Shown here: positions 48,560-51,956 of the stretch, piece by piece
Layout: each line of letters begins with the position of its first letter
Position numbering within the stretch: the first letter of the stretch is position 1
NCBI RefSeq assembly: GCF_009914755.1
Contig: NC_060933.1
Direction: 5' to 3' (one strand)
DNA length: 64,000 bases
Source: the human T2T-CHM13v2.0 reference genome, Homo sapiens
The notes under the pieces: model-generated
What the model saw: the letters and a program-made list of their open reading frames with translations, nothing else
Database searches by the model: none
What the model was told of the DNA's origin: nothing
Position numbers and translations under genes: made by a program

Positions 48560-48690
48560 CCAGCCCCATAGTGATGTCATAAACTCCCAGATGCCCAGTG
48601 TGCACCCGGCCACAGAGAAGTGGGTGACTTCGGAGTATCCTCTCCGCTTCTGACCCTTAGTTTCGTCTGTGCACAACTCGCTCAAAATGG
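48560..48690 (+). promoter_or_regulatory. Candidate promoter of the NPAP1-like copy
   Basis: CRE-like TGATGTCA (48572-48579) directly followed by TAAA, about 105 bp upstream of a strong-Kozak ATG (AAAATGG, 48687). Confidence 0.35.
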
Positions 48691-49002
48691 GCAACTCACT
48701 AAGCATATTTTGTTCCTGGTTCCACCGCAGGTCCTGGCCACGCCACCGGCAACCTGCTCGTCTTGTCCGTGAGGCCTTCCCAGCTGGCCGGGCTCACCCC
48801 GCGGCTCCTGCACCTGTGCCTGCCCCGGGAATCTGGGGCCGTTTCCCACTCCTCTTCAACCGTCAGCGACATCTTGGGCCTTCTTTTCCAGTCAGGTGGG
48901 ATGGCGCCCCTGTGAGGCTGTGTCTTATCCCTCGGAACACGGGCACCCCACAGAGGGTCCTGCCTCCTGTGGTCTGGAGCCCCCCCCTCAAGGAAGAAAC
49001 CC

Positions 49003-49938
49003 GTGCTGTCTGCTCGCAACTCCAGGATGTTTGGACACCTCAGCCCCGTGAGGATCTCTTGTCTCAGAGGCAAGTTTAACCTTCAACTTCCTTCATTAGA
49101 TGAGCAGGTGATCCCAGCCAGGCTCCCGAAGATGGAGGTGAGGGCAGAAGAGCCCAAAGAAGCAACGGAGGTGAAAGACCAGGTAGAGACCCAGGGGCAG
49201 GAGGACAATAAAAGGGGCCCCTGTAGCAATGGGGAAGCAGCTTCCACCTCTAGGCCCCTGGAGACTCAGGGAAACCTCACTTCCTCCTGGTACAATCCCA
49301 GGCCCTTGGAGGGAAATGTCCACCTCAAGAGCTTGACAGAAAACAACCAGACTGACAAGGCCCAGGTGCATGCAGTGAGTTTCTACTCCAAGGGCCATGG
49401 AGTCGCCAGTTCACACAGCCCTGTTGGAGGCATCCTTCCCTTTGGGAAGCCTGACCCACTTCCAACAGTGCTCCCTGCCCCAGTTCCGGGCTGCTCCCTG
49501 TGGCCAGAGAAGGCGGCCTTGAAGGTGCTGGGTAAAGACCACCTGCCCAGCTCTCCAGGCTTGCTGATGGTGGGGGAGGACATGCAGCCCAAGGATCCTG
49601 CAGCTCTTGGATCAAGTAGGTCTTCTCCACCCAGAGCTGCCGGCCACAGGTCCCGCAAAAGAAAACTGTCGAGGCCACCGCTGCAGCTGCAACCGACCCC
49701 TCCCCTGCAACTGAGGTGGGAGAGAGATGAGGGGCCCCCACCGGCTAAGCTTCCATGTCTATCTCCTGAGGCACTGTTGGTGGGTCAGGCTTCCCAAAGA
49801 GAAGGACGCCTCCAGCAGGGCAACATGCGTAAGAACATGAGGTTGTTAAGTAGAACATCAAAATTCAGGAGACTAAGAGAGCTGCTTAGGAGGAGAAAGA
49901 AGAGACAGCAGGGCAGGCGTGGTGGCCCACGCCTGTAA
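49003..49938 (+). CDS. Open 311-codon UPF0607-type frame (first in-frame ATG at 49027); stop codon supplied by the Alu
   Basis: ORF track; the last codons GRRGGPRL* are Alu left-arm sequence (CACGCCTGTAA). No evidence of expression. Confidence 0.5.
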   Translation: MLSARNSRMFGHLSPVRISCLRGKFNLQLPSLDEQVIPARLPKMEVRAEEPKEATEVKDQVETQGQEDNKRGPCSNGEAASTSRPLETQGNLTSSWYNPRPLEGNVHLKSLTENNQTDKAQVHAVSFYSKGHGVASSHSPVGGILPFGKPDPLPTVLPAPVPGCSLWPEKAALKVLGKDHLPSSPGLLMVGEDMQPKDPAALGSSRSSPPRAAGHRSRKRKLSRPPLQLQPTPPLQLRWERDEGPPPAKLPCLSPEALLVGQASQREGRLQQGNMRKNMRLLSRTSKFRRLRELLRRRKKRQQGRRGGPRL

Positions 49939-50979
49939 TCCAGCACTTTGGGAGGCCCAGGCGGGTGGATCAGGAGGTCAAGAGATTGAGACCTGAGGAG
50001 CATCTCTGCCTGCACCATCTGGGAAGTGAGGAGCGCCTCTGCCCGGCTGCTCCACCATCTGGGAAGTGAGGAGCGCCTCTGCCCAGCCGCCCCACCATCT
50101 GGGAAGTGAGGAGCGCCTCTGCCTGGCCACCGCACCGTCTGGGCAGTGAGGAGCGCCTCTGCCAGGCCCCCACCCTCTCTGGGAAGTGACGAGTGCCTCT
50201 GCCTGGCCGCCTCACAGCCCGGGAAGTGAGGAGTGCCTCTGCCCAGCCGCCGCCCTGTCTGGGAAGTAAGGAGCGCCTCTGCCTTGCCGCCGTCCTGTCT
50301 GCGAAGTGAGGAGTGCCTCTGCCCGGCCTCCTCACCGTCTGGGAAATGAGGAGCGCCTCTGCCTTGCCGCCGTCCTGTCTGCGAAGTGAGGAGTGCCTCT
50401 GCCCGGCCTCCTCACCATCTGGGAAATGAGAAGCACCTCTGCCTGGCCGCCGTCCCATCTGGGAAGTGAGGAGCACTTCTGCCCAGCCGCCACCCTGTCT
50501 GGCAAGTGAGGAGCACCTCTGCCCGGCCCCCTCACCGTTTGTAAGGGAGGAGCGCCTCTGCCCAGCCCCTGCACCGTCTGGGAAGTGAGGAGCGCCTCTG
50601 CCCGGCCCCCTCACCATCTGGGAAGTGAGGAGCGTCTCTGCCCGCTGCTGTGCAACCTTCCAAGTGTGAAGTGACAGCCTTGTGTGTGATCTTTCTGCCC
50701 TCCCCAAGTCTGCATTTTCGACATTAAAGTTTACTTTTTAATTAAAAAAAAGGAGATTGAGATCATTCTGGCCAACATGGTGAAACTCCGTCTCTACTGA
50801 AAATACAAAAATTAGGCAGGCATGGTGGCTTGTGCCTGTAGTCTCAGCTACTCGAGAGGCTGAGGCAGGAGAATGGCTTGAACCCAGGAAGTGGAGGTTG
50901 CAGTGAGCCGAGATCGCACCACTGCACTCCAGCCTGGTGACAAAGCAAGACTCCGTCTCAAAAAAAAAAAAAAAAAAAA
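49911..50979 (+). mobile_element. AluSc-like element split by an SVA2 insertion (parts 49911-49993 and 50765-50979)
   Basis: Alu left arm runs to GAGGTCAAGAGATTGAGACC, resumes at ATTCTGGCCAACATGGTG, and ends with the right arm and poly(A). Confidence 0.9.
49994..50750 (+). mobile_element. SVA2 element (SVA-type VNTR + unique 3' end + poly(A))
   Basis: About 16 units of ~40 bp GGGAAGTGAGGAGCGCCTCTGCCCGGCC...; 3' tail GTGCAACCTTCCAAGTGTGAAGTGACAGCC...ATTAAA, not SINE-R; TSD AAGAGATTGAGACC (49980-49993) / AGGAGATTGAGATC (50751-50764). Confidence 0.85.
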
Positions 50980-51956
50980 GTAAGACATGGCAAACTGCAG
51001 TGGCACCCAGCCTGCCCCTGCTGTCTCCACACCTGCTGAGACTCCCTGCCCCTGGCCACCTACACTTCACGGATCCCAGCTCCTCGTCTTACTCTGACTC
51101 GGCCCACGTGCTGTTGGGCCCCTCATTTTGCCTGTCCCTCCACCTTCTCTCACACCAAGAATTGAGTAAAATTTGATATCCATAATTCCTAACTCTTCCC
51201 TGGCTCTTCCCACTGACCTTGCCCCCATTTTGGGGGTTCCACCTAATGAGAAAGGAGGCTGCTCTCATTCAGCTGCAGTTTCAGTGCCTCTGACCTCTGA
51301 CCCATGCCCCACACATCCTAGCCCCACATCTTTCTCCTTCCAGCCTCCCTTCAGAAGGGAGCCTCCTACACCCATATGTGTGCATTCCTCTCCTCCTCTT
51401 TCCTCCCCTCCTCCTCTTCCAGCAACTTTACTATAGAAAACAAAAGACCCAAGTATGCAAGCAATATATACCATGTAAATGGGTAGTGAGATTAAGTATC
51501 AGCAAGATACCAAGCCTCCTAAATTAATCCATAAATTCAACACACTTCTAATAAAAAACCCAAATGCATTTTTTTGGTTAAATATGATCACCTAAACCTA
51601 AACTCACAGTGAAGAAGGGTCAAGAATAGTCTAGACAATTTTGAAGAACACGGAGATAGAAAAACATTCTAATCAACGTTTATTATAAAGCTGTGGTATA
51701 CATGAATGAGTCTCTGGTATAAGGAGATACGAATATATCCAATGAATAAAAATAAAAGCCAGAAATAGACCCTTTAGAAGGGAATCTGGCTTACCAAAGA
51801 AGGGAAATTTCCAAGCAGTAGGTAAATACTGGATTATTCAACTAATAATGCTGAGACAACTGACCATCATATGGAAAACAATCAAATTAGACCTTTAGGG
51901 TAGGAAACGATTCCCTAAGACTTCAAAAGACCAAACTATAAAAGATTGGTAAATTT

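What the first reader, a model, noticed from the sequence alone, without database searches (positions are those of the whole stretch)
48560..51430. Candidate source locus of an NPAP1-ORF / Alu / SVA2-VNTR composite retroelement (UPF0607 family) in SPTLC1 intron 3
Seen: an NPAP1-like ORF runs into an Alu that supplies its stop codon. 56 bp after the stop, an SVA2 (VNTR + ATTAAA + poly(A)) sits inside that Alu between a 14-bp TSD. The rest of the Alu follows, and NPAP1-like coding sequence resumes at 50980-51430. All three layers are in place, giving the order NPAP1-like gene, then Alu, then SVA2. Known: VNTR composites (SVA, LAVA, PVA, FVA) combine an SVA2-type VNTR with other modules and are mobilised by L1 in trans; several putative UPF0607 proteins are annotated at dispersed human loci. 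Inference: a plus-strand transcript from about 48.6 kb would end at the SVA2 poly(A) signal and yield promoter-ORF-Alu stub-VNTR-poly(A). That would be a protein-coding VNTR composite, and only the founder locus should keep both TSD copies, the Alu remainder and the downstream NPAP1 sequence.
Basis: partly seen in the sequence, partly recalled or inferred. Interest (0 to 1): 0.9.

Follow-up and report, generated by a model that had tools for sequence, protein, structure and literature searches.

The report
SPTLC1 isoform retrocopies carrying antisense UPF0607
This intron of SPTLC1 is the parent of the scattered human "UPF0607" gene copies, but they spread as ordinary processed copies of an alternative SPTLC1 messenger RNA that carries the NPAP1-like gene backwards, not as a new protein-coding jumping element.

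Summary
The anatomy is real. A POM121/NPAP1-like ORF on the + strand stops inside an Alu. An SVA2 (40-bp VNTR, unique tail, ATTAAA, poly(A), 12-13-bp TSD) sits inside that Alu. NPAP1-like sequence resumes at 50986. Paralogues with unfilled sites confirm the order NPAP1-like, then Alu, then SVA2.

The locus is the parent of nine dispersed copies, which lie 2.8-4.1% from the window. The mobilised RNA, however, was on the minus strand. 9 of 9 copies hold SPTLC1 exons 1-2-3 joined without introns. Exon 3 is spliced to the antisense-Alu acceptor (T20-GAG|ACGGAG, exon start 50956). The copy then runs through 50956->47280 and ends in a poly(A) tail 12-21 nt after a minus-strand ATTAAA. TSDs are recognisable in 7 of 9. 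None ends at the SVA2 poly(A), and none holds 50985-51430. A tenth, older copy is 5'-truncated and uses the same poly(A) site.

Two canonical SPTLC1 exons downstream of exon 3 have no second copy in the genome. The antisense 416-aa ORF evolves neutrally (dN/dS 1.1).

These are L1-type processed pseudogenes of an Alu-exonised SPTLC1 isoform. They are not a VNTR composite retroelement. I found no paper stating this origin.

The parts
47271..47282 (-). Cleavage/poly(A) addition sites of the ancestral SPTLC1 alternative isoform
   Evidence: 7 of 9 young copies end at window 47280, 1 at 47276 and 1 at 47271, each followed by a poly(A) tract; the older copy L021 also ends at 47280.
47294..47299 (-). 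ATTAAA poly(A) signal on the SPTLC1-sense strand
   Evidence...ATTATTAAAAGG(C/T)AAGAAGTTAA lies immediately before the poly(A) tail in all 10 retrocopies.
47290..47292 (-). Window-specific sense C->T at 47290. It turns AAG|GCAAGA into AAG|GTAAGA, the donor of the annotated exon 47292-47426.
   Evidence: 12 of 12 other copies (9 retrocopies, 2 segmental duplicates, the old retrocopy) have C. The exon boundary comes from the hub's annotation table.
47280..50956 (-). 3.68-kb terminal exon of the retrotransposed SPTLC1 isoform. It contains, all antisense, the Alu right arm, the SVA2, the Alu left part and the NPAP1-like unit.
   Evidence: copies L009-L017 align to 47276/47280 through 50957 and then jump to 53227; the same exon 3|ACGGAG junction in 9 of 9.
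50957..50979 (-). Antisense-Alu 3' splice site: the Alu A20 tail read as a U-tract, followed by GAG|
   Evidence: the sense strand reads ...cttac T(20) GAG|ACGGAGTCTTGC. Its use is proven by the junction in the copies.
53227..53321 (-). SPTLC1 exon 3, present in all 9 retrocopies
   Evidence: 95/95 nt at 97-100%; the 11 genome matches (11 of 11 candidates scored) are the source, 1 segmental duplicate and 9 retrocopies.
56942..57049 (-). SPTLC1 exon 2, present in all 9 retrocopies and abutting exons 1 and 3
59801..59900 (-). SPTLC1 exon 1. The retrocopies start at exon positions 2, 8, 19, 23, 26 and 29 (four copies).
47358..49911 (+). NPAP1-like (POM121-family, 'UPF0607') unit, 5' part. About 1.3 kb is homologous to the region upstream of the NPAP1 start codon, followed by the ORF.
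   Evidence: NPAP1 locus L027 aligns to 47369-48351 and 48905-49771; the NPAP1 ATG aligns with the ATG at 48687.
48687..49938 (+). Ancestral 416-aa ORF ending in the Alu. In the window it is split by a derived 1-bp insertion in the C-run at about 48980 into 130-aa and 303-aa ORFs.
   Evidence: 5 of 9 retrocopies keep 416 aa and 1 keeps 407 aa. All 12 other copies lack the extra C.
49912..49993 (+). Alu, left part. It supplies the TAA at 49936-49938.
49994..50751 (+). SVA2-type insertion: VNTR 50013-50644, unique tail from about 50645, ATTAAA, poly(A)
   Evidence: the tail has 209 first-look candidate loci, of which 40 were scored at 93-100%; 5 of 5 sampled loci have the tail plus poly(A), 3 of them with several VNTR units, and I read TSDs by eye in 4. 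SVA2 units of 40/39 bp and a 3' unique sequence are described in PMC4432496.
50752..50979 (+). Alu remainder, with the second TSD copy at 50752/3-50764 and the A20 tail at 50960-50979
50986..51430 (+). NPAP1-like unit, 3' part. It is intronic to the SPTLC1 isoform and absent from the retrocopies.
   Evidence: present in the source, both segmental duplicates, three chr10 copies, NPAP1 and two chr9:92 Mb copies. 0 of 9 retrocopies hold it.

Best explanation
An intronless NPAP1-like (POM121-family) gene fragment lies in SPTLC1 intron 3, antisense to SPTLC1. It was hit first by an Alu and then, inside that Alu, by an SVA2. Read on the SPTLC1 strand, the Alu's A-tail is a 20-nt U-tract followed by AG, the classic antisense-Alu splice acceptor. 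An alternative SPTLC1 mRNA joined exons 1-2-3 to this acceptor at 50956. It ran 3.68 kb through the antisense Alu, antisense SVA2 and antisense NPAP1-like unit, and was polyadenylated at about 47280 after ATTAAA. Its predicted product is 86 aa of SPTLC1 plus a 36-aa Alu-derived tail. The L1 machinery reverse-transcribed this mRNA in trans at least ten times. Nine copies are essentially full-length and came in a star-like burst of roughly great-ape age. One older copy is 5'-truncated. Each copy carries, backwards, the whole NPAP1-like unit: its 1.3-kb upstream region, the 416-aa ORF stopped by the Alu, and the SVA2 with its poly(A) signal. That is why databases list dispersed 'putative UPF0607 proteins'. 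Shown here: the spliced junctions, the poly(A) position and strand, the TSDs, the unrelated flanks, and the neutral evolution of the ORF. Inferred: that L1 was the reverse transcriptase, the dating, and that the isoform was abundant in the germ line.
For:: 10 places besides the window itself cover nearly the whole 1353-nt probe at 96-97% (20 of 20 candidates scored). Nine are retrocopies and one is an unspliced duplicate; the nine align to window 47276/47280-50957 and then directly to 53227-53323; in 9 of 9, exons 1, 2 and 3 abut with no intron; 9 of 9 have the identical junction of exon 3 to ACGGAG, and the unspliced duplicate L018 does not; the acceptor in the window reads T20-GAG|ACGGAG; 9 of 9 have a poly(A) tract on the SPTLC1-sense strand directly after ...ATTAAAAGGCAAGAAGTTAA. 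Read by eye, TSDs are exact at 11-17 bp in 5, have 1-2 mismatches in 2, and are unclear in 2; the 2-kb flanks of the nine copies share only 4 hits, all <=350 bp; exon 3 occurs 11 times in the genome; exons 25358-25451 and 12453-12585 occur once each; the unspliced duplicate at chr9:94.58 Mb ends at window 54267 and lacks exons 1-2, so it cannot be the parent; 0 of 9 hold 50985-51430; the older copy L021 has the same poly(A) site, is truncated in the VNTR and has the TSD AAGAAAGAGTG; the tree is star-like, with internal branches <=0.0028, bootstraps <=77 and terminal branches 0.013-0.027; dN/dS is 1.11 over 55 pairs.
Against: I had no RNA data. The hub's exon table lists no SPTLC1 exon starting at 50956, so the isoform is inferred only from its retrocopies and may no longer be made. 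2 of 9 copies (L009, L017) show no clear TSD. The tree cannot by itself identify the parent, because the window sits inside the star. That identification rests on the introns and on exons 1-2 being unique to the window. Only two canonical downstream exons (94 and 133 nt) were used as the control for canonical-mRNA retrocopies, so old diverged copies could be missed. Only one human genome was searched, and no other primate genome, so the dating is by divergence alone.
Confidence: 0.93

Rival explanations
1. A + strand transcript (promoter, NPAP1-like ORF, Alu stub, SVA2 VNTR, SVA2 poly(A)) is the mobilised unit, making a protein-coding VNTR composite retroelement.
For: The + strand unit exists physically, and each copy contains it. 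The SVA2 tail with ATTAAA works as a 3' end in other SVA2 insertions.
Against: 0 of 9 copies end at about 50750. All 9 continue through the Alu right arm into spliced SPTLC1 exons. The poly(A) tails are on the opposite strand at 47271-47280. All copies include 1.4 kb upstream of the ORF down to exactly the minus-strand poly(A) site. dN/dS is 1.11.
Confidence: 0.01
2. The dispersed copies are plain DNA-level segmental duplications of the locus or of one first copy.
For: Two true DNA-level duplicates of the locus do exist. One is at chr9:94.58 Mb (window 43648-54267, about 95-97% identity). The other is at chr9:100.01 Mb (window 44746-51422, 86-91% identity).
Against: The nine copies lack introns 1, 2 and 3. 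They have poly(A) tails, mostly have TSDs, have different 5' ends, and their flanks are unrelated.
Confidence: 0.01
3. The origin is as in the best explanation, but the copies are not dead. The antisense carrier delivered complete promoter-ORF-poly(A) cassettes, and some copies are expressed genes that make UPF0607 protein.
For: The copies carry about 1.3 kb homologous to the region upstream of the NPAP1 ATG. 5 of 9 keep the full 416-aa ORF and 1 keeps 407 aa. Sources name predicted ape proteins of 416 aa. The gene name FLJ37424 implies a cDNA clone (recalled, not checked).
Against: dN/dS is 1.11 in frame, higher than in the two shifted frames (0.61 and 0.70), and about 1 against the older duplicate. 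By my rough estimate (not a tool result), chance alone would leave about 3 of 9 ORFs of this length and age intact, so 5-6 of 9 is not clearly more. The upstream region is not a CpG island (observed/expected 0.16-0.32). The parent's own ORF is frameshifted.
Confidence: 0.1

Closest known systems
L1-mediated processed pseudogenes (retrocopies) of cellular mRNAs
   Same: Introns are removed, there is a poly(A) tail at the mRNA 3' end, TSDs of 11-17 bp flank the copies, insertion sites are dispersed and unlinked, and no promoter of the parent gene is carried.
   Different: The template is a minor, intronically polyadenylated, Alu-exonised isoform rather than the canonical mRNA. I found no retrocopy holding either of the two canonical downstream exons tested. 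9 of 10 copies are full-length. The payload includes a whole antisense gene unit.
Alu exonisation through the antisense right-arm acceptor (recalled from the general literature, not read here)
   Same: The poly(U) tract comes from the Alu A-tail and is followed by GAG|AC. The junction is used in 9 of 9 copies.
   Different: Here the Alu exon is the start of a 3.68-kb terminal exon, not a short cassette exon.
VNTR composite retrotransposons (SVA, LAVA, PVA, FVA) and the exon-trapping subfamily SVA_F1/MAST2. PMC4432496 was read in passages; SVA_F1 is recalled.
   Same: Host-gene 5' exons are spliced onto an antisense-Alu-type acceptor next to an SVA2-type VNTR, and the RNA is mobilised in trans.
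   Different: The VNTR is antisense in the mobilised RNA. The SVA2 poly(A) signal is not used. There is no CT-hexamer or Alu-like 5' module. The copies derive from one host-gene promoter and cannot propagate themselves.
NPAP1 / NPAP1L / UPF0607 family of POM121-derived intronless genes (Neumann et al. 2014, PMC3942032; abstract and passages read)
   Same: The ORF is POM121-family. It aligns from residue 1 with NPAP1 at 42% identity over 377 aligned positions. Sources name its relatives UPF0607.
   Different: That paper treats UPF0607 copies as gene duplicates or retrogenes and has 0 mentions of SPTLC1, Alu or SVA. Here the young human copies are antisense passengers in SPTLC1 retrocopies.
PMCHL1/2, created by retroposition of an antisense MCH-locus transcript (recalled, not read here)
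   Same: Gene sequence was copied to new loci through an antisense carrier RNA.
   Different: It is a different locus. Here the carrier is a spliced isoform of the host gene and produced about ten copies.

Membership tests
L1-type processed pseudogene | Parent introns precisely removed | tested here: met
   exons 1|2|3|Alu-exon abut in 9 of 9.
L1-type processed pseudogene | Poly(A) tail at the 3' end of the parent-sense strand, downstream of a poly(A) signal | tested here: met
   9 of 9 young copies and the old copy L021. ATTAAA lies 12-21 nt upstream.
L1-type processed pseudogene | Target-site duplications | tested here: met
   read by eye: 5 exact (11-17 bp), 2 with mismatches, 2 unclear. 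L021 has an 11-bp TSD.
L1-type processed pseudogene | Independent dispersed insertions with unrelated flanks | tested here: met
   the copies lie on chr1, 2, 6 (two), 8, 9, 10, 13 and 16; flanks share only 4 hits, all <=350 bp.
VNTR composite retrotransposon (SVA/LAVA/PVA/FVA type) | Mobilised RNA is VNTR-sense and ends at the poly(A) signal of the element's own 3' module | tested here: not met
   the VNTR is antisense to the poly(A)-tailed strand in 9 of 9, and 0 of 9 end at 50750.
VNTR composite retrotransposon (SVA/LAVA/PVA/FVA type) | 5' CT-rich hexamer plus Alu-like module upstream of the VNTR | tested here: not met
   on the + strand the VNTR is preceded by a sense Alu left part and the ORF, with no CT-hexamer array. 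The definition of this feature is recalled.
SVA2 element (the insertion at 49994-50751) | VNTR of about 40/39-bp units | tested here: met
   period 40. PMC4432496 gives dominant units of 40 and 39 bp.
SVA2 element (the insertion at 49994-50751) | Family-specific unique 3' sequence, poly(A) and TSD | tested here: met
   209 candidate loci, of which 40 were scored at 93-100%; 5 of 5 sampled have the tail plus poly(A). TSD and empty site.
SVA2 element (the insertion at 49994-50751) | Match to the Repbase SVA2 consensus | not testable with these tools
   No repeat library was available.
POM121 / NPAP1 / UPF0607 protein family | POM121 family domain (PF15229) | tested here: met
   E 1.5e-22, 81 bits against a cut-off of 27; alignment to NPAP1 at E 1e-51.
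POM121 / NPAP1 / UPF0607 protein family | Evolves as a protein-coding gene (purifying selection) | tested here: not met
   dN/dS is 1.11 among the 11 young copies and about 0.9-1.2 against the older duplicate.
Alu exonisation | Antisense Alu with a U-tract plus AG acceptor that is actually used | tested here: met

The most novel reading that the evidence does not exclude
Antisense-carrier retroduplication. The NPAP1-like unit lies backwards inside the terminal exon of a host-gene isoform. Each L1-made copy therefore delivers a complete gene cassette to a new locus: its own 1.3-kb upstream region, a 416-aa ORF and the SVA2 poly(A) signal. Ordinary retrocopies cannot do this. In the boldest form of this reading, some copies are expressed UPF0607 genes. 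In addition, the Alu/VNTR content made this minor isoform an unusually good L1 template, giving ten retrocopies against none seen for the two canonical downstream exons tested. Production then stopped when the sense C->T at 47290 created a strong 5' splice site 12 nt from the poly(A) site.
Probability: 0.15. Interest if true: 0.6.

Novelty: new member of a known kind. Interest (0 to 1): 0.4.

Why it matters
This gives a concrete, checkable origin for the dispersed human "putative UPF0607 protein" loci. They are antisense passengers inside processed pseudogenes of an Alu-exonised SPTLC1 isoform, so the protein predictions deserve caution. The retrocopies are also a fossil record of a splice isoform that the annotation table I was given no longer lists. 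The case further shows that an intron-nested gene can be copied together with its upstream region through a host-gene transcript. None of the mechanisms involved is new.

Tried and rejected
- Rfam gave 0 matches at gathering score over 47000-52500.
- The derived-state patterns and the ML tree were meant to order the copies and show the window as parent. Both give a star with much CpG homoplasy. There is only a weak hint that the chr9:94.58 Mb duplicate split first (6 sites).
- Matching ape and monkey database proteins to individual human copies, to date the burst, failed. The best identities are 90-93% with no clear orthologue, probably because the database is clustered at 90%. The comparison does show that Old World monkey proteins share the Alu-derived C-terminus.
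- One protein comparison failed because I gave coordinates in the wrong frame. I repeated it correctly.
- The chr9:94.58 Mb duplicate was considered as an alternative parent and rejected, because it ends at window 54267 and lacks exons 1-2.
- Literature searches: 'UPF0607' gave 3 papers; 'FLJ37424' gave 0; 'SPTLC1P' gave 14, of which I opened only PMC12026730, while the other 13 listing rows do not suggest a study of the pseudogenes' origin; 'SPTLC1' + 'processed pseudogene' gave 5, none on this topic judging from the listing and one passage; 'SPTLC1' + 'retrocop' gave 0; 'NPAP1' + 'SPTLC1' gave 1 gene list.
- The supplements of PMC3942032 (Table S2, the list of UPF0607 genes) were not opened.
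Full report
1. WHAT IS IN THE WINDOW

On the + strand, ORF 49027-49938 (303 aa) matches Pfam POM121 (PF15229) at E 1.5e-22. Its TAA (49936-49938) lies inside the left part of an Alu that begins at about 49912. 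The Alu is interrupted 55 nt after the stop, at 49994.

The insert has three parts. The first is a VNTR at 50013-50644 (period 40, 15.8 copies, 80% matches). The second is a unique tail. The third is ATTAAA and a poly(A) ending at 50751. The insert is flanked by a 12-13-bp duplication, 49981/2-49993 versus 50752/3-50764, with 1-2 mismatches. The Alu then continues to its A20 tail (50960-50979). NPAP1-like similarity resumes at 50986-51422/51428, although this stretch has stops in all three frames.

The 110-nt tail has 209 first-look candidate loci in the same genome. Forty were scored, all at 93-100% identity. I fetched five of them. All five have the tail plus poly(A), and three have several VNTR units. 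I read TSDs by eye in four. Lupan et al. 2015 (PMC4432496, passages read) describe SVA2 as having dominant 40- and 39-bp units and a "3' unique sequence". The SVA2 call is therefore reasonable, but no repeat library was available to confirm it.

2. ORDER OF THE LAYERS

Paralogues in the same genome preserve the unfilled sites. NPAP1 (chr15) and two copies at chr9:92.0 and 92.5 Mb run from about 49771 straight to 50986 with no Alu. Three chr10 copies (88-92% identity downstream of the Alu) carry the Alu in one piece, with a single copy of the TSD sequence and no SVA2.

Old World monkey database proteins named UPF0607 end in the same Alu-derived C-terminus. If they descend from the same insertion, the Alu predates the catarrhine split.

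3. THE DISPERSED COPIES

A search of the window's own assembly with 48560-49912 returned ten places besides the window itself that cover nearly the whole probe at 96-97% identity. All 20 candidates were scored. I fetched about 10 kb around each of 19 matching places and aligned them to window 44000-55000.

Nine copies lie at chr1:151.2, chr2:68.5, chr6:23.7, chr6:64.4, chr8:27.3, chr9:28.2, chr10:31.4, chr13:76.9 and chr16:66.2 Mb. Each aligns from 47276/47280 to 50957 and then jumps directly to 53227-53323. That second stretch is SPTLC1 exon 3, which lies on the minus strand.

- With the exons as probes, all nine hold exon 3, exon 2 and exon 1 abutting base to base with no intron.
- All nine have the same junction...CGTTTCAGG|ACGGAGTCTTGC. 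The unspliced duplicate does not.
- In the window the minus strand reads T20-GAG|ACGGAG at 50979-50950. This is the Alu A-tail acting as a polypyrimidine tract with an AG, and the exon starts at 50956.
- At the other end, all nine stop at 47280 (seven copies), 47276 or 47271. This is directly after ...ATTATTAAAAGGCAAGAAGTTAA, and a poly(A) tract on the SPTLC1-sense strand follows.
- Reading the flanks by eye, five copies have exact TSDs of 11-17 bp (L010, L011, L013, L014, L015). Two have TSDs with 1-2 mismatches (L012, L016). Two are unclear (L009, L017).
- The 5' ends fall at exon-1 positions 2, 8, 19, 23, 26 and 29 (four copies).
- The 2-kb flanks of the nine copies share only four hits, all <=350 bp.

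These features are the hallmarks of independent L1-type processed retrocopies of a spliced minus-strand mRNA.

A tenth copy at chr8:36.6 Mb is 11.1% from the window (226/2032). It ends at the same poly(A) site, is 5'-truncated inside the VNTR and has the TSD AAGAAAGAGTG.

4. WHICH LOCUS IS THE PARENT

Exon 3 occurs 11 times in the genome (11 of 11 candidates scored): the window, the nine retrocopies and one place at chr9:94.58 Mb. That place is an unspliced, DNA-level duplicate of window 43648-54267 at about 95-97% identity. At its right end, and at or near its left end, the window carries Alu-size repeats. It lacks exons 1 and 2. Window 55300-64000 has no second copy apart from NUMT and interspersed repeats, with the tool's caveat that only 40 of its candidates were scored.

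A second, older DNA-level duplicate at chr9:100.01 Mb covers window 44746-51422 at 86-91% and also lacks the exons. Only the window holds exons 1-3, their introns and the terminal exon together. It is therefore the parent.

The ML tree of 2637 ungapped columns is a star. Internal branches are <=0.0028, bootstraps <=77, terminal branches 0.013-0.027, and the window's own branch is 0.016. The derived-state patterns are dominated by singletons (14-37 per copy, 22 for the window) and by homoplasy. The tree therefore neither names nor excludes the window as parent. A master locus is expected to sit inside such a star.

- Copies ending at the SVA2 poly(A) near 50750: 0 of 9.
- Copies lacking 50765-51430: they lack only 50958-51430 (0 of 9 hold 50985-51430) and keep 50765-50957.
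- Both SVA2 TSD copies kept only by the founder: 8 of 9 retrocopies keep both. chr8:27.3 lost the VNTR and the left TSD copy through a deletion.

The "founder locus" idea holds. The strand, the transcript and the class of element do not.

No further short copies turned up with the 3'-terminal 820 nt as probe (28 of 28 candidates scored).

6. CONTRAST WITH THE CANONICAL mRNA

Exons 25358-25451 and 12453-12585 each occur once in the genome. This gives ten retrocopies of the alternative isoform against none detected for these two canonical exons. The reason is not shown. High germ-line abundance of the isoform is the simplest reading. An intrinsic effect of its Alu/VNTR content is possible but untested.

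7. THE ORF

The ancestral ORF was 416 aa, from the ATG at 48687 to the TAA in the Alu. The ATG is homologous to the NPAP1 start codon, and the alignment begins at residue 1 (42% identity over 377 aligned positions, E 1e-51).

Five of the nine retrocopies keep the 416-aa ORF. One has 407 aa and three are frameshifted. The window itself carries a derived extra C at about 48980 that splits the ORF into 130 and 303 aa. All 12 other copies lack that C.

Pairwise Nei-Gojobori dN/dS over 55 pairs (window, the chr9:94.58 Mb duplicate and nine retrocopies) is 1.11. The two shifted frames give 0.61 and 0.70. Against the older duplicate, dN/dS is about 0.9-1.2. There is no sign of coding constraint.

Database proteins of 416 aa at 89-96% identity carry the names "putative UPF0607 protein ENSP..." in gorilla and bonobo. 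Shorter ones occur in orangutan and gibbon.

Because the unit is antisense in the carrier RNA, each copy also holds about 1.3 kb homologous to the region upstream of the NPAP1 ATG. That region is not a CpG island (observed/expected 0.16-0.32).

8. AGE

- Divergence from the window is 2.8-4.1% at all sites.
- Mean pairwise divergence among the 11 young sequences is 3.7% at all sites and 2.15% at non-CpG sites (range 1.3-3.1%).
- Set against recalled genome-wide figures (human-gorilla about 1.6%, human-orangutan about 3%), this suggests a burst of roughly great-ape age. I could not check orthologous sites in other primates.
- VNTR spans differ between copies, from 14 to 1222 bp against 656 bp in the window.

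9. TWO LATER CHANGES IN THE PARENT

The first is the frameshift described in section 7. The second is a base change at 47290 on the SPTLC1-sense strand. The window has T there, where all 12 other copies, including both older outgroups, have C. The change turns AAG|GCAAGA into AAG|GTAAGA. That is exactly the donor of the annotated exon 47292-47426 in the hub's table, and it lies 12 nt upstream of the old poly(A) site. Whether this change ended use of the poly(A) site is inference only.

10. THE INFERRED ISOFORM

The spliced model is 3980 nt long. It would encode 122 aa: 86 aa from exons 1-3 plus 36 Alu-derived residues. The hub's exon table lists no exon starting at 50956, so the isoform is known here only from its retrocopies.

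11. LITERATURE

Neumann et al. 2014 (PMC3942032; abstract and three passages read) define UPF0607 as a primate-specific, intronless sister group of NPAP1. They attribute its copies to duplication or retrotransposition of the gene. The text has 0 occurrences of SPTLC1, Alu or SVA, and I did not open its supplements.

"SPTLC1P" names appear in 14 papers. I opened only PMC12026730 and did not read the other 13. Its table places a SNP at chr6:23,798,867, 58 kb from SPTLC1P2, which is compatible with the chr6:23.7 Mb copy. Annotators therefore already name at least that locus as an SPTLC1 pseudogene.

Searches for 'FLJ37424', for 'SPTLC1' with 'retrocop', for 'SPTLC1' with 'processed pseudogene' and for 'NPAP1' with 'SPTLC1' found nothing that links the spread of UPF0607 to an SPTLC1 transcript. 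These searches cover only the held open-access library.

12. VERDICT

It is wrong on mechanism. The element is a set of processed pseudogenes of an Alu-exonised, intronically polyadenylated SPTLC1 isoform. The NPAP1-like ORF, the Alu and the SVA2 are antisense passengers. The mechanisms are all known kinds. The specific account of where the dispersed UPF0607 "genes" come from appears not to be in print in the library searched.

Noticed in passing
window 47290-47292 (minus strand): A window-specific sense C->T turns a GC into a GT donor (AAG|GTAAGA) at the end of the annotated exon 47292-47426, 12 nt upstream of the poly(A) site used by all ten retrocopies. 12 of 12 other copies have C. It may have switched the locus from polyadenylation to splicing.
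   Followed up: partly
window about 48980: The parent locus has a derived 1-bp insertion in a C-run that splits the 416-aa ORF. All 12 other copies lack it. The parent is thus annotated as a pseudogene while five of its retrocopies keep the full ORF.
   Followed up: yes
L018/L028/L029 = G000:C9:94576866-94587802; window 43648-54267: An unspliced 10.6-kb segmental duplicate of SPTLC1 intron 3, exon 3 and part of the NUMT, at about 95-97% identity. The window carries Alu-size repeats at its right end and at or near its left end. A 356-aa database protein (P0036) is 98% identical to its translation.
   Followed up: partly
L023, L024, L025 (chr10:88.26, 51.54, 80.73 Mb): Three chr10 paralogues cover only window 49472-51428 and carry the Alu without the SVA2 (pre-insertion state), at 78-92% identity.
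   Followed up: partly
L019 (chr9:100.01 Mb) and L021 (chr8:36.6 Mb), at window about 48699-48763: The older copies have about 250-390 extra bases at this point. The alignments overlap on a stretch of about 65 nt, which suggests a tandem repeat in the N-terminal coding part. L019 has a 498-aa ORF, and monkey UPF0607 proteins are 437-464 aa.
   Followed up: no
window 48486-48512 (minus strand): The annotated 27-nt SPTLC1 exon has a GT donor but TG, not AG, in front of it (read). It looks like an alternative first exon whose start site lies inside the antisense NPAP1-like unit.
   Followed up: no
L010 (chr8:27.29 Mb): This retrocopy has lost nearly the whole VNTR and the last 21 nt of the Alu left part (span 14 bp). 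VNTR spans in the other copies range from 619 to 1222 bp, against 656 bp in the parent.
   Followed up: yes
window 53345-56319: The mitochondrial-DNA insertion (NUMT) next to exon 3 is interrupted by an Alu at about 54177-54472. Its first part, up to 54267, is included in the chr9:94.58 Mb duplicate, so the NUMT is older than that duplication.
   Followed up: no
window 47281-47360: The last 80 nt of the terminal exon, outside the NPAP1-like homology, match about nine dispersed loci at 76-82% identity. It is probably an old interspersed repeat that supplies the poly(A) signal region.
   Followed up: no
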